Assembly (NCBI GenBank): GCA_964016885.1
Contig: OZ024742.1
Span: 62,806,001 to 62,870,000 of the forward strand
From: Eledone cirrhosa
Taxonomy: Eukaryota
Length of the DNA stretch: 64,000 bases
Direction of reading: 5' to 3'
Shown one piece after another: positions 1 through 27,499 of the stretch. Made by a program: the position numbers and the translations under genes. A model generated the notes under the pieces. That model made no database searches. It was given only the letters and a program-made list of their open reading frames with translations, and was not told the origin of the DNA. Positions within the stretch are counted from its first letter, which is position 1; each line of letters starts with the position of its first letter.

Positions 1-328
1 ACATATACATACATATATATATATACATATATACATATATATATATACATATATACATATATATATATATACATATATACATATATATATATATATACAT
101 ATATACATATATATATATACATATATATATATACATATATACATACATATATATACATATATACATATATATATATACATATATACATACATATATATAC
201 ATATATACATATATATATATACATATATACATACATATATATACATATATACATACATATATATACATATATACATACATATATATACATATATATATAT
301 ATATACATACATACATATATATATATAC

Positions 329-399
<71 letters not shown>

Positions 400-462
400 C
401 ATATATACATACATATATATACATATATATATATATATACATACATACATATATATATATAC

Positions 463-500
<38 letters not shown>

Positions 501-504
501 ATAC

Positions 505-541
<37 letters not shown>

Positions 542-542
542 C

Positions 543-607
<65 letters not shown>

Positions 608-898
608 CATACATATATATATATATATATACATACATACATATATATATATATACATACATACATATATATATATATATACATACATACATATATATAT
701 ATATATACATATATACATATATATATATATACATATATACATATATATATATATACATACATACATACATATATACACATATATACACATATATACATAT
801 ATATATATATACATACATATATATACATATATATATACATATATACATACATATATATATATACATACATATATATATATACATACATATATATACGT

Positions 899-942
<44 letters not shown>

Positions 943-992
943 ATATATATATACATACATATATATACATATATATATACATATATACATAC

Positions 993-1023
<31 letters not shown>

Positions 1024-1040
1024 CATACATATATACATAC

Positions 1041-1071
<31 letters not shown>

Positions 1072-1133
1072 CATACATATATATATATACATACATATAT
1101 ATATATACATACATATATATATATACATACATA

Positions 1134-1174
<41 letters not shown>

Positions 1175-1211
1175 ACATACATATATATATACATATATAT
1201 ATATACATACA

Positions 1212-1252
<41 letters not shown>

Positions 1253-1277
1253 ACATACATATATATATATACATACA

Positions 1278-1318
<41 letters not shown>

Positions 1319-1353
1319 ACATACATATATATATATACATACATATATATACA

Positions 1354-1394
<41 letters not shown>

Positions 1395-1619
1395 ACATAC
1401 ATATATATATATACATACATATATATACATATATATATACATACATATATATATATATACATACATATATATATACATACATATATATATATACATACAT
1501 ATATACATACATATATATATATATACATACATATATATACATATATATATACATACATATATATACATATATATATACATACATATATATATATATACAT
1601 ACATATATATATATATACA

Positions 1620-1653
<34 letters not shown>

Positions 1654-1682
1654 TACACATACATACATACATACATACATAT

Positions 1683-1725
<43 letters not shown>

Positions 1726-1788
1726 CATACATATATACATACATATATATATATATACATACATATATACATACATACATATATATAT

Positions 1789-1821
<33 letters not shown>

Positions 1822-2298
1822 TATACATACATACATATATATATATGCATACATATATATACATACATACATATATATATATACATACATATATACATAT
1901 ATATATATATACATACATATATACATATATATATATATACATACATATATACATATATATATATATACATACATATATACATATATATATATATACATAC
2001 ATATATACATATATATATACATATATACATATATATATATACATACATATATACATATATATATATATACATACATATATACATATATATATATATACAT
2101 ACATATATACATATATATATATATACATACATATATACATATATACATACATATATACATATATATATACATACATATATACATATATATATATATACAT
2201 ATATACATATATATATATATACATACATACATACATACATATATATATACATACATACATACATACATATACATACATACATATATATATATATATAC

Positions 2299-2331
<33 letters not shown>

Positions 2332-2332
2332 C

Positions 2333-2363
<31 letters not shown>

Positions 2364-2364
2364 C

Positions 2365-2397
<33 letters not shown>

Positions 2398-2398
2398 C

Positions 2399-2431
<33 letters not shown>

Positions 2432-2460
2432 CATACATACATACATATATATATACATAC

Positions 2461-2491
<31 letters not shown>

Positions 2492-2492
2492 C

Positions 2493-2523
<31 letters not shown>

Positions 2524-2766
2524 CATACATACATACATACATATATATATATACATACATACATACATACATATATATATATATATACATACATACATAT
2601 ATATATATACATACATACATATATATATATATATACATACATACATATATATATATACATACATACATATATATATATATACATACATACATACATATAT
2701 ATATATATACATACATACATACATACATATATATATATATATACATACATACATATATATATATAT

Positions 2767-2797
<31 letters not shown>

Positions 2798-2834
2798 CAT
2801 ACATACATACATACATATATATATATATACATAC

Positions 2835-2865
<31 letters not shown>

Positions 2866-3097
2866 CATACATACATACATACATATATATATATATACAT
2901 ACATACATATATATATATATATACATACATACATATATATATATATACATACATACATACATATATACATACATATATACATATATACATACATATATAT
3001 ATACATACATATATATATACATATATATATACATACATATATATATACATACATATATATATACATACATATACATACACATATATATATACATACA

Positions 3098-3130
<33 letters not shown>

Positions 3131-3152
3131 TCATATATATATATATACATAC

Positions 3153-3183
<31 letters not shown>

Positions 3184-3237
3184 CATACATATATATATAT
3201 ATACATACATATACATACACATATATATATACATACA

Positions 3238-3270
<33 letters not shown>

Positions 3271-3272
3271 TC

Positions 3273-3305
<33 letters not shown>

Positions 3306-3311
3306 CATACA

Positions 3312-3343
<32 letters not shown>

Positions 3344-3366
3344 CATACATATATATATATACATAC

Positions 3367-3397
<31 letters not shown>

Positions 3398-3401
3398 CAT
3401 A

Positions 3402-3474
<73 letters not shown>

Positions 3475-3658
3475 ACATACATATATATATATACATACAT
3501 ATATATATATACATACATATATATATACATACATACATATATACATACATACATACATATATATATACATACATATATACATACATATATATATACATAC
3601 ATACATATATATACACATACATACATATATATATACACATACATACATATATATATAC

Positions 3659-3705
<47 letters not shown>

Positions 3706-3815
3706 CATATATATATACATACATATATATATACATACACATATATATATACATACATACATATATATATATATACATATACATACATATATACATATAC
3801 ATACATATACATACA

Positions 3816-3850
<35 letters not shown>

Positions 3851-4108
3851 TTATACATACATATATTTATACATACATATATTTATACATACATATATAT
3901 ATACATACATATAGTTATACATACATATATTTATACATACATATATTTATACATACATATATTTATACATACATATATTTATACATACATATATTTATAC
4001 ATACATATATTTATACATACATATATTTATACATACATATATATATACATACATATATATATACATACATATATATATTTATACATACATAGACATATAT
4101 ACATACAT

Positions 4109-4139
<31 letters not shown>

Positions 4140-4140
4140 T
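1..4140. repeat. Very long compound (TA)n/(TACA)n microsatellite
   Basis: Almost only TA/TACA/CA units for more than 4.1 kb, running off the window edge. A 16-bp TACATACATATATTTA period appears at about 3841-4080. Confidence 0.98.
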
Positions 4141-4650
4141 ACATGGTGGCTGCCAACTCGTTTTCGAGTACGGCCACTACTTTATATTCATGTAGGAAAA
4201 CCCCTACGAGTGTGACTTTTTAGTCTAGCCATTGACTTGAAAACTCTGGTACAAACACTACACTTGTGACAATTATTGACACACAGTGCTGGGCTCATGG
4301 TACCATGTGGCGCAAAGTAAAGGGAGATCTCCAGATATAAAGCAATGCCTGTGCCGTGAAGCTTTTATAGTCAGCAAAGGCACTGCGCAAAGCCAGTCCC
4401 ACTCTCTTAACCAAGATGATATTTACCAAAAAGAAGAACAAGTCAACATCATTGGATACCATCAGGGTTGCATGTGTTATATCAGAATTTTCCTTCTAGA
4501 ATTCTGCCTTGACAAAGGCTAAGGGGTCATCTCTCCCGGACATATATATATACAGCCATACATACATACATATATACATACATACAGGTATATACATACA
4601 TATACATATACATAAATATACATACATACACATATATATATGTATACTTT

Positions 4651-18299: not shown

Positions 18300-18318
18300 T
18301 TATATATATATATATAAT

Positions 18319-18565
18319 CATCTCTGGACAGGAGCCGACAGAAAAAAACAATTTTGATATCACTATGGGATCATCTGACTCGGCGCAACTTACAGACCTC
18401 ATTAGATTAGTTATTAATAATGTACTGCATAGGAAAATGTCAGAGATGACCGGAGGTTTATATCGTGACGATATGTTGCTTTTAACTGAAAACCATAGCA
18501 ATAGTGAAATTAATAGGAAAAGAAAATCCATAATAACTTATCATAATTATTTAAATTTTCCATAG
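18319..18565 (+). mobile_element. Penelope-like element (PLE) reverse transcriptase fragment
   Basis: FDITMGSSDSAQLTDLI and GLYRDDML match the PLE RT motifs FDxTMGSxDGA and GLYRDD. Confidence 0.8.
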
Positions 18566-18841
18566 CGTCTAAAATAACGTTTTTTTCGTACCTTTTACAT
18601 AAACCTCATTTGCATACTCATCTTAATAATTTGAAATATCTGACTTTTCTTCTCTTTTCCTTTCACTATCCAAGCATAACTTGAACCGTTAAGGTATATT
18701 CTCCTTGGTTATGTCAAAATTTATAAAACATACTTCGTATTTTATCTGATGATAGCGTACCAAAATGTTTGGTACCCTTGAAATATATATATAATAGAAT
18801 AAATATGGTATTATAAATATAGTTTCCATTTATTTAATATC

Positions 18842-18933
<92 letters not shown>

Positions 18934-19157
18934 TGTGTGTGCGTGCACGGGCGAGTGTGTGTGTGGAGCAAGAAAGAGAGAATTTTCGGCTTTTGAAGCG
19001 CCGAGAATATATATATATAAATATATATATATATGTAGAAGCCATTTCTATATTAAATATTTATTCTCTGCTATGTATTGAGTACCTTACTTACTGTGGT
19101 TACCCCCGATTGAACCCGTGATAAACATATATATACCACCATATTACTTGGACAGTC

Positions 19158-19200
19158 GGCTTCTTGATGATTTCTCCCGAATGAAAGAGTTCTAGAAGCC
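19158..19200 (+). ncRNA. Minimal type-I hammerhead ribozyme motif (C3U variant)
   Basis: GGCTTC-TTGATGA-TTTCTCCCGAAT-GAAA-GAGTTC-TA-GAAGCC. Perfect 6-bp stem I, core boxes, near-palindromic stem III. Confidence 0.6.
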
Positions 19201-19692
19201 CTTTCTATATTAAATATACTAGCAGAAAAACTACCCTTCGCGTGGTTTTCTGCTAGCATGTGTAGTGTCCATATTGATATTATACGCAAGTATATATGCA
19301 TGTAGATATACATTAAATAAAATCGTAAATATACACAGAAATTGAACAAAGACTGCGTTACACTCCCTTATGTAATCAGTAACGGAATCCATGGTAAATT
19401 AAAAAAAGACGATATTATATATAAACTGCATGAGGAGAAAATTATTAATGTTTATTTAAGCGATCGCTAACCGGATGAGTTAAAAATTTTAAAGAAGTGA
19501 ATCTTTAAATAAGTAATAAAATATATTTAACAAACAGCCACGAAATTTAGTAGATAAATTATGTAATATTCATTCATTATTTATTCAAAGTAATCCAACT
19601 TATTTTACAAACGGGATAAAAAAAATATATATTCTGGATGCAGCCCGCACTCCTTTCTTTATTATATATATATATATATATATTATTATTAT

Positions 19693-19749
19693 TAAGGTTA
19701 ACTTTGCCTTTCATCCTTACGGGGTCGATAAAATAAAGTACCAGTAATG

Positions 19750-19751
<2 letters not shown>
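19693..19751 (+). mobile_element. SINE A internal fragment
   Basis: Identical core between (ATT)n and (CA)n. Confidence 0.85.
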
Positions 19752-19837
<86 letters not shown>

Positions 19838-19886
19838 AGTATTGTGAAAATGCTAAAGTGCAGAAATATATATATATATATATATG

Positions 19887-20078
19887 AGCCCCGGGTTTAA
19901 CCGGAGTTAACCAGAGTAAGTATGGTACTCAAAACATTAGTACAGTGTAAAAATCAAGATTAATACAGAATCGGCTTCTACTGAACTGGAATTGTTTCAT
20001 TCAAAAGAAATCCTCAGAAAGGGCTTTTCTGATGATTTCTTTTGAATGAAACAGTTCTAGTCCTGTAGAAGCCATTTC
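19887..20078. mobile_element. PLE pLTR-like fold-back element with inverted hammerhead motifs
   Basis: Arms 19973-20019 and 20025-20073 are inverted. The plus arm reads CTGATGA..GAAACAG-ttctagtc-CTGTA-GAAGCC. The body is homologous to 19035-19120 and 27287-27420. Confidence 0.65.
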
Positions 20079-20094
20079 TTTCTTTCTTTCTCTT

Positions 20095-27192: not shown

Positions 27193-27285
<93 letters not shown>

Positions 27286-27286
27286 T

Positions 27287-27420
27287 GGCTACTACCGGAC
27301 TAGAACTGTTTCATTCAGGAAATCATCCTGTAGAAGCATTTCTGTGTTAAGTTTGTTGTTTATACTCTACTAATGTATTGAGTAGCTTACTTACGGTGGT
27401 TACCTCTGATTGAACCCGGC
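27287..27420. mobile_element. PLE pLTR-like element, same family as 19887-20078
   Basis: Inverted partial hammerhead (minus strand GATGATTTCCTGAATGAAACAGTTCTAGTCCGGTAG) joined to the plus-strand body ending GGTTACC..GATTGAACCCGG. Microsatellites on both sides. Confidence 0.65.
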
Positions 27421-27425
27421 ACTCA

Positions 27426-27499
<74 letters not shown>

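What the first reader, a model, noticed from the sequence alone, without database searches (positions are those of the whole stretch)
19035..20078. Hammerhead-ribozyme-bearing short element family in inverted arrangement beside a Penelope RT fragment
Seen: several related copies (19035-19200, 19887-20078, 27287-27420) give the consensus GGCTTC-CTGATGA-T TTC nnnn GAA T-GAAA-CAG..CTG-TA-GAAGCC. This is a type-I hammerhead with a 6-bp stem I and an NUA cleavage triplet. The copies differ in stem II loop and stem III but keep the topology. All have an unusual U.U at the base of stem II instead of the canonical G10.1-C11.1. Established: PLE pseudo-LTRs carry minimal hammerheads and often occur as inverted partial copies. 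Inference: a non-autonomous, microsatellite-associated PLE/retrozyme-like family, possibly with a variant ribozyme core. The link to the RT fragment at 18319-18565 rests on proximity only.
Basis: partly seen in the sequence, partly recalled or inferred. Interest (0 to 1): 0.75.

Follow-up and report, generated by a model that had tools for sequence, protein, structure and literature searches.

The report
Hammerhead ends of Hydra-clade Penelope retrotransposon
These short repeats are the clipped, mirror-image ends of a very abundant Penelope-like jumping gene whose intact 6-kb form, carrying kilobases of TA/TG repeat, lies elsewhere in the genome; their predicted self-cutting RNA has an odd U-U pair that is already known, and the neighbouring enzyme fragment belongs to a different family.

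Summary
The hammerhead core matches exactly 16,802 times in this genome (control 0); U.U closes stem II in 174 of 179 copies; two stem I pairs change on both sides between subfamilies. The interpretation needs three corrections. (1) U10.1.U11.1 is not new: it is in 14 of 25 Hydra-clade families tabulated by Craig 2021, in Perreault 2011, and in a self-cleaving axolotl ribozyme. (2) The family has an autonomous parent: locus L359 holds hammerhead, tail, an open 713-aa Hydra-type RT-endonuclease frame, about 3 kb of inherited TA/TG tract and a second hammerhead. Whether older 440-600-nt forms are non-autonomous stays open. Inverted pairs carry one long and one short end (16 of 17), and 62 of 131 5' ends fall 25-40 nt below a TATA box against 7 at the cleavage site, which suggests copying of uncut RNA from two start sites. 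Earlier scan notes report two-ended pairs and the tail hairpin on other DNA of this genome. Cleavage and expression are untested.

The parts
18314..18535 (+). RT fragment (MGSxDxA...GLYRDD) of a second Hydra-clade family (family 2); not the parent of the flagged repeats
   Evidence: 94-95% identical to L226/L227; only 51% over 43 aa to the family-1 ORF
18532..18845 (+). 3' end of family 2, joined to the RT fragment by an internal deletion of about 2.0 kb with 4-nt overlap; ends at its short end site in (TG)n
18738..18801 (+).
19035..19126 (+). Family-1 piece A1: begins 3 nt before the cleavage site, carries the full tail (long end) and the tail hairpin
19134..19217 (+). Family-1 piece A2: decayed hammerhead (C3U, 8-nt loss in stem III), ends at the short end site
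19885..20020 (-). Inverted pair B, minus arm: damaged hammerhead plus full tail (long end) in (TA)n
20021..20079 (+). Inverted pair B, plus arm: intact hammerhead, short end
20029..20067 (+). Hammerhead core C3 to A17: CUGAUGA, U.U-closed 3-bp stem II, GAAA, 4-bp stem III with palindromic loop, UA triplet; predicted cut 20067/20068
27281..27327 (-). Inverted pair C, minus arm: core start lost, short end
27329..27426 (+). Inverted pair C, plus arm: begins just before the cleavage site, full tail (long end)

Best explanation
The flagged repeats are 5'-truncated, mostly head-to-head copies of the hammerhead-bearing end of a Hydra-clade Penelope-like retrotransposon whose intact 6-kb form exists elsewhere in this genome, and they likely arise when the element's own protein nicks (TA)n DNA and copies uncut element RNA from two start sites. 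Shown: the layout of the parent (hammerhead, 88-nt end region, ATG, 713-aa RT plus GIY-YIG frame, 1.5-5 kb TA/TG tract, 550-nt body with TATA box, second hammerhead); two fixed 3' end sites 65-70 nt apart; one long and one short end per inverted pair; 5' ends clustered at the stem I 5' strand. Inferred: transcription starts about 30 nt below the TATA box, at the edge of stem I; each nicked DNA strand primes at one of the two sites; the short cDNAs run off the RNA 5' end and are joined back to back; the ribozyme cuts weakly, probably best as a dimer or with protein help, and is not needed for insertion.
For: Parent: L359 intact with both hammerheads 5,966 nt apart; L356 holds two further ORF-tract-hammerhead arms; ORF-end and body landmarks pair on one strand, in order, within 6 kb for 22 of 80 ORF ends on contig 1, spacing 1.5-5.2 kb, chance 0.06, wrong order 1; the tract keeps ordered landmarks in three copies. 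Older ORF-linked bodies: L261, L378, L380, L381, L384, L404. Hydra motifs RWR, DKT, CxCx5C, YIG, CxxC, CxH read in P0002 against Craig 2021 section 11. Ends: microsatellite begins 15-29 nt (29 of 85) or 85-94 nt (24 of 85) after the cut site; 16 of 17 pairs chosen by core only are long+short, none long+long, p 1.4e-4, and the 17th has a long arm with an internal deletion; 68 of 76 in the wider, partly tail-selected set. 5' ends: 62 of 131 at -10 to +4, mode -4, against 7 at +35 to +41; TATAAATA at the same offset (about 36 nt before C3) in three diverged subfamilies. Two RT start sites, both strands extended, ribozyme dispensable and protein-assisted are shown for an anole PLE (PMC11167929).
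Against: The intact parent belongs to the youngest subfamily (stem I AGAUUC/GAAUCU); the window copies belong to older ones, for which no intact ORF was seen. Only 1 of 20 full-looking subfamily-1a copies had the ORF upstream on the same strand within 6 kb, and most had under 160 nt of TA/TG upstream. Only 6 of 20 older ORF ends had any family-1 sequence downstream on the same strand within 5 kb, 4 with 190 nt or more. 58 of 80 ORF-end landmarks had no exact body landmark within 6 kb. 5' end calls are BLAST alignment ends and can shift by microhomology; two window pieces (19035, 27329) start near the cut site. The hammerhead fold is not the minimum-energy fold (1.0-1.3 kcal/mol above it in 3 copies). 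Stems II and III show no two-sided change within the family.
Confidence: 0.75

Rival explanations
1. The older subfamilies (those in the window) spread mainly as non-autonomous 440-600-nt elements, derived from the parent's end and mobilised in trans by Hydra proteins.
For: Subfamily 1a copies share a sharp 5' edge next to short (TA)n with unrelated flanks (part of that output was cut); 19 of 20 lack the ORF upstream on the same strand within 6 kb; subfamily B reaches about 600 nt with no same-strand ORF remnant upstream in 30 loci; a tail hairpin is shared with other Hydra families.
Against: The query defined that edge; a TA tract inside the parent would give the same edge by truncation with microhomology to the target; 1a-type bodies are linked to the ORF in L261, L380 and L404. 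The window copies are too short to tell.
Confidence: 0.2
2. A non-LTR retrozyme: tandem units are cut by the hammerhead into monomers or circles that are reverse-transcribed.
For: A1 and A2 lie in direct order, cut site to cut site about 157 nt; stem III can self-pair as a dimer at -12.8 kcal/mol; 7 of 131 5' ends lie near the cut site.
Against: No tandem array of this family in the window; among the first 100 listed core matches the close neighbours are mostly divergent pairs; A2 lacks the body and is decayed; most 5' ends lie upstream of the core.
Confidence: 0.04
3. The hammerhead is a dead relic; U.U is decay and the motif rides along.
For: Only 62 of 112 spanning copies keep an intact core; weak stem II; no Rfam match.
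Against: The core is fixed across subfamilies while loop II and stem I change, with two compensatory pairs; U.U recurs in five unrelated families here and in 14 of 25 published Hydra families; an axolotl U.U hammerhead cleaves.
Confidence: 0.1

Closest known systems
Hydra clade of C-terminal-endonuclease PLEs (Craig et al. 2021, PMC8557442; passages, section 11, File S1 Hydra sheet, File S2 and snippets of File S4 read)
   Same: Single RT plus C-terminal GIY-YIG frame, DKT, RWK-like RWR, CxCx5C linker, CxxC and CxH motifs, GLYRDD, (TA)n target, hammerhead near the end, inverted 5'-truncated partner, tail at one end only; U.U at the base of stem II in 14 of 25 tabulated families (my count).
   Different: About 6 kb rather than under 3 kb, owing to a 1.5-5 kb inherited TA/TG tract; tail 65-70 nt rather than the 30-40 bp given for other PLEs; stem III has an 8-nt loop; its hammerhead differs from that listed for Hydra-1_Obim.
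PAc Poseidon element of Anolis (Frangieh et al. 2024, PMC11167929; parts 1-2 of 4 read)
   Same: Two RT start sites bounding a tail at the pLTR-ORF junction, AT-rich target, uncut RNA as template.
   Different: Other clade; no strand preference for start site was seen in vitro, whereas the pairs here are almost always one long plus one short.
PLE minimal hammerheads (Cervera and de la Pena 2014, PMC4209133; parts 1-2 of 4 read)
   Same: Type I motif in PLE terminal repeats, palindromic stem III region, dual motifs on opposite strands.
   Different: Those have a conserved G10.1-C11.1 pair, an extra base after A9 and almost no stem III; family 1 has U.U and a 4-bp stem III.
U10.1.U11.1 hammerheads: Perreault et al. 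2011 (PMC3088659, passages and section 8 read) and axolotl HHR_Amex2 (PMC7229834, passages and section 15 read)
   Same: U.U mismatch closing stem II; in the axolotl also with a more stable stem III; 22% cleavage in 1 h as monomer, more as dimer.
   Different: Amex2 sits in 350-bp tandem retrozyme repeats; here the motif is the end of an ORF-bearing PLE.
Metazoan non-LTR retrozymes (PMC7229834; Li et al. 2026 bioRxiv 10.64898/2026.07.22.740005, part 1 of 5 read)
   Same: Short non-coding repeats with type I hammerheads, related to PLE terminal repeats.
   Different: Retrozymes are head-to-tail arrays with a ribozyme in each unit; these copies are dispersed, truncated and head-to-head.

Membership tests
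Hydra-clade PLE (parent L359) | Single ORF with RT and C-terminal GIY-YIG endonuclease | tested here: met
   713 aa from Met, YIG motif, weak Pfam GIY-YIG E 0.012 below cut-off; 1,403 unnamed homologs, best 120 at 38-54% identity
Hydra-clade PLE (parent L359) | DKT and RWK motifs | tested here: met
   SDKT and RWR (K to R) in P0002
Hydra-clade PLE (parent L359) | CxCx5C linker; CxxC and CxH near the C-terminus | tested here: met
   CNCLNKEAC, CDLC, CMH in P0002
Hydra-clade PLE (parent L359) | No CCHH finger, no insertion-in-fingers domain | not tested
   No alignment to the published proteins was made
Hydra-clade PLE (parent L359) | Hammerhead in the terminal repeat; insertion in (TA)n | tested here: met
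Hydra-clade PLE (parent L359) | Generally shorter than 3 kb (descriptive, not defining) | tested here: not met
   About 6 kb
Hydra-clade PLE (parent L359) | Phylogenetic placement with the published Hydra proteins | not tested
   Published proteins were visible only as cut snippets
Type I hammerhead ribozyme | CUGANGA, GAAA, NUH core in a three-way junction | tested here: met
Type I hammerhead ribozyme | Stems supported by covariation | tested here: inconclusive
   90% of cells paired; 2 stem I pairs change on both sides (probably two events; pair-count measure not above shuffles, 474/500); none in stems II and III. Unrelated families keep the three stems with different letters.
Type I hammerhead ribozyme | G10.1-C11.1 pair (usual, with known natural exceptions) | tested here: not met
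   U.U in 174 of 179; known exception
Type I hammerhead ribozyme | Self-cleavage | not testable with these tools
   needs a bench assay
Non-LTR retrozyme | Head-to-tail units of 150-450 bp, each with a hammerhead | tested here: not met
Non-LTR retrozyme | Abundant circular RNA | not testable with these tools
   no RNA holder listed
Naiad PLE (considered for the RT fragment) | N-terminal endonuclease, no canonical hammerhead | tested here: not met
   Family 2 has a C-terminal endonuclease and a hammerhead

The most novel reading that the evidence does not exclude
This family records the Penelope insertion reaction in its copies: the ribozyme is the very first thing transcribed, stays uncut on the template, and both nicked strands of a (TA)n target prime at different fixed sites flanking a tail hairpin shared by at least six Hydra-type families, so that run-off cDNAs join into mirror pairs. 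The parent also carries 1.5-5 kb of TA/TG repeat in its own RNA, so every long insertion plants new target DNA for itself and its relatives: a self-feeding route to microsatellite-rich genomes, with an intact protein in hand to test it.
Probability: 0.4. Interest if true: 0.65.

Novelty: new member of a known kind. Interest (0 to 1): 0.4.

Why it matters
The headline claim, a variant ribozyme core in a non-autonomous family, is not new. What remains of value: an intact, young Hydra-clade element, for which I found no biochemistry in the papers searched; genomic rules (one long plus one short end, 5' ends at a predicted start site, not at the cut site) that make the open question of how PLEs form inverted insertions and what their hammerheads do directly testable; and a PLE that carries kilobases of its own target repeat, which would also make repeat annotators split it into an ORF without ribozyme and a short orphan repeat, as happened here. 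The youngest subfamily accounts for only about 500-600 tract-bearing copies, so a large share of the genome's microsatellites is not shown.

Tried and rejected
Rfam scans gave no hammerhead match, only hairpin look-alikes. Pfam found nothing in the 81-aa RT fragment or the family-2 ORF. I first read the RT fragment as Naiad from recalled motifs; rejected. I first took family 1 as a purely non-autonomous element (the 415-nt slice used there lacks the last 22 nt, true length about 440) and its parent ORF as a Hydra family without a hammerhead; both were overturned when longer stretches crossed the TA/TG tract. A search with the sequence upstream of one young copy led to an unrelated young repeat. 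A 72% match of the 1a 5' end to L222 was TG-rich noise. RNA evidence: no RNA holder listed, no evidence either way. Contigs of two runs of unknown kind, possibly the source sample, show loose ends piling at L359 314-316, which fits the 5' end cluster but is not independent. The +6.5 kcal/mol for the family-2 fold came from an incompletely drawn stem II; redrawn it is -7.3 against an MFE of -10.2. The window's 1-4141 TA/CA array has the strand bias of the parent's tract but none of its landmarks; not assigned. Lunse et al. 2017 (small PLE hammerhead variants) was not held and may bear on U.U frequency; the source and rate of Perreault's U.U example (Fig. S6) could not be found in the supplement text; bioRxiv supplements were not seen. 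Literature searches for a PLE with an internal microsatellite tract or for octopus PLE hammerheads listed no such description; subscription journals, Repbase and Dfam were not searched.

Full report
Observation. The three flagged sites are one repeat family. Two window copies pass a type I descriptor: 20029-20067 is intact; 19164-19194 has C3U and an 8-nt loss in stem III. The minus arms at 20017 and 27327 are damaged. Searches of the 3.0-Gb own genome returned 2,201 and 892 candidates for two window copies. The exact 42-nt core pattern matches 16,802 times, control 0. Eight of 40 unselected 10-kb stretches hold the family, about 11 insertion sites by my count, which extrapolates roughly to 80,000 sites. 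Rfam models do not detect it. The host looks like an octopod from its repeat make-up; that is recalled and echoed in earlier scan notes, not tested.

Ribozyme. Over 257 aligned pieces (some may be counted twice through overlapping loci) the core is the majority at 90-97%, and only loop II and the outer stem I vary by subfamily; 62 of 112 spanning copies keep an intact core, as expected for decay after insertion. U.U closes stem II in 174 of 179 copies. Two stem I pairs switch G-C to A-U and C-G to A-U between subfamilies; stems II and III never change on both sides, so covariation is real but thin. The fold lies 1.0-1.3 kcal/mol above the minimum in three copies, and stem III can also self-pair between two molecules at -12.8 kcal/mol. 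In the unselected 400 kb, 10 of 20 descriptor hits have U.U, from three unrelated families; two more families show it in the other loci.

U.U is known. Perreault 2011 reports natural U10.1-U11.1 hammerheads and notes that U-U is the best tolerated mismatch (section 8). The axolotl HHR_Amex2 has it and cleaves 22% in 1 h as a monomer, more as a dimer (section 15). In Craig 2021 File S2, 14 of 25 Hydra-clade families have U after CUGANGA and U before GAA, listed as canonical (my count). Cervera 2014 describes G10.1-C11.1 as highly conserved in other PLE hammerheads, which is why it looked odd.

The RT fragment. The 81-aa piece carries the motif of Hydra-1_Amil. In 18 of 20 RT-anchored loci the sequence found at window 18532-18845 lies 1.8-2.7 kb downstream on the same strand; in none does the family-1 end lie there. 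The window copy is this family 2 with about 2.0 kb deleted. Family 2 has its own hammerhead at 18746, with A-U at the base of stem II in most subfamilies and U.U in the one found here. Its protein is 38% identical to the family-1 protein.

The parent of family 1. Walking upstream first ended in microsatellite after about 440 nt (subfamily 1a) or 600 nt (subfamily B). Stretches upstream of 40 young core matches then showed a Hydra ORF end 2.9 kb upstream across a TA/TG tract (part of that output was cut). L359 (G000:C1:14205000-14212500, minus) is complete: hammerhead, tail, ATG 136 nt after the cut site, 713 open codons with RWR, DKT, GLYRDD, CxCx5C, YIG, CxxC and CxH, a 2.9-kb tract with 40 C in 2,905 nt, a body with TATA box, and a second hammerhead 5,966 nt from the first. 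The tract keeps ordered landmarks in three copies of 2.0-3.1 kb. Its two borders match exactly 493 and 635 times; on contig 1, 22 of 80 ORF-side borders pair with a body-side border within 6 kb against 0.06 expected, while 58 do not. Against a simple picture: of 20 older ORF ends only 6 have family-1 sequence downstream within 5 kb, and of 20 full-looking 1a copies only 1 has the ORF upstream. The window copies belong to these older subfamilies, so a non-autonomous route for them is not excluded.

Ends. Copies stop at two sites, about 20 and 88 nt past the cut site; the region between them runs on into the ORF start in L359, as the tail does in the anole element. Of 17 divergent pairs chosen by core sequence alone, 16 are long+short and none long+long; the last has a long arm with a deletion. 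Window pairs B and C obey the rule. Craig 2021 already notes that the tail is often at one end only. Of 131 copies not selected for their 5' end, 62 begin at -10 to +4 relative to C3 and 7 at +35 to +41; a TATAAATA box sits about 36 nt before C3 in three diverged subfamilies. A hairpin of the form ACTC...GAGT (GCTC...GAGC in two families) opens the tail in families 1, 2 and at least four others; the strict motif occurs 20 times in the 400 kb against 0-3 in shuffles, and several families carry only looser forms.

Mechanism. Shown: layout, end rules, copy number. Inferred: a TATA promoter in the terminal repeat starts RNA at the edge of stem I; the protein nicks both strands of (TA)n; each end primes at one of the two tail sites; cDNA from the 5' repeat runs off the RNA end after 60-140 nt and the two products join back to back, while priming in the 3' repeat gives longer and, rarely, full copies. 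Ends at the 5' edge of the ribozyme rather than at the cut site point to uncut template, as found in vitro for the anole element. Stalling at the structure would be expected to leave ends on the 3' side of stem I (inference). Cleavage is likely weak and dimer- or protein-assisted, by analogy.

Earlier scan notes, seen only after this analysis, report Hydra-clade ends, two-ended pairs and the tail hairpin on other DNA of this genome; sequence look-ups for the window pair and the L359 protein returned nothing. I did not see the 6-kb tract-bearing parent in the notes shown.

Verdict. Real feature, known kind: a new Hydra-clade PLE family with a known hammerhead variant. Interest 0.4, carried by the intact parent, its microsatellite tract and the testable end rules.

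Noticed in passing
window 18738-18801: Second, unrelated U.U hammerhead in the 3' end of the RT fragment's own family; A-U in older subfamilies, U.U in this one.
   Followed up: yes
window 54696 (-) and 54723 (+): Inverted pair of another (TA)n family with GAAA, a 5-bp stem III and a GUC triplet; in the copies seen the CUGANGA half is missing; same tail hairpin and two end sites.
   Followed up: partly
window 1-4141: 4.1-kb TA/CA array with G almost absent on the plus strand, the same strand bias as the parent's internal tract, but without its landmarks.
   Followed up: partly
window 19216-19256: Small hairpin directly behind piece A2 (arms CTAGCAGAAAA), not part of family 1.
   Followed up: no
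L171-L210 (unselected 400 kb): 20 type I hammerhead hits from at least seven families, which extrapolates to the order of 150,000 intact-looking motifs in the genome.
   Followed up: partly
L184:3700-9040: Three copies of another Hydra endonuclease end, followed by a compact U.U hammerhead with palindromic stem III.
   Followed up: partly
L380, L381, L384: The parent's TA/TG tract is itself packed with insertions of other (TA)n-targeting hammerhead families.
   Followed up: no
L178:7480-7752: Very young unrelated repeat, 99-100% identical at 39 other places scored, into which a family-1 copy appears to be inserted.
   Followed up: no
L216, L220, L225: Family 2 also shows partial tandems: a hammerhead-bearing end directly upstream of the ORF.
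   Followed up: partly
L363:3120-4283 (-): Open 388-aa frame that reads like alpha-tubulin (recalled), without introns over this stretch.
   Followed up: no
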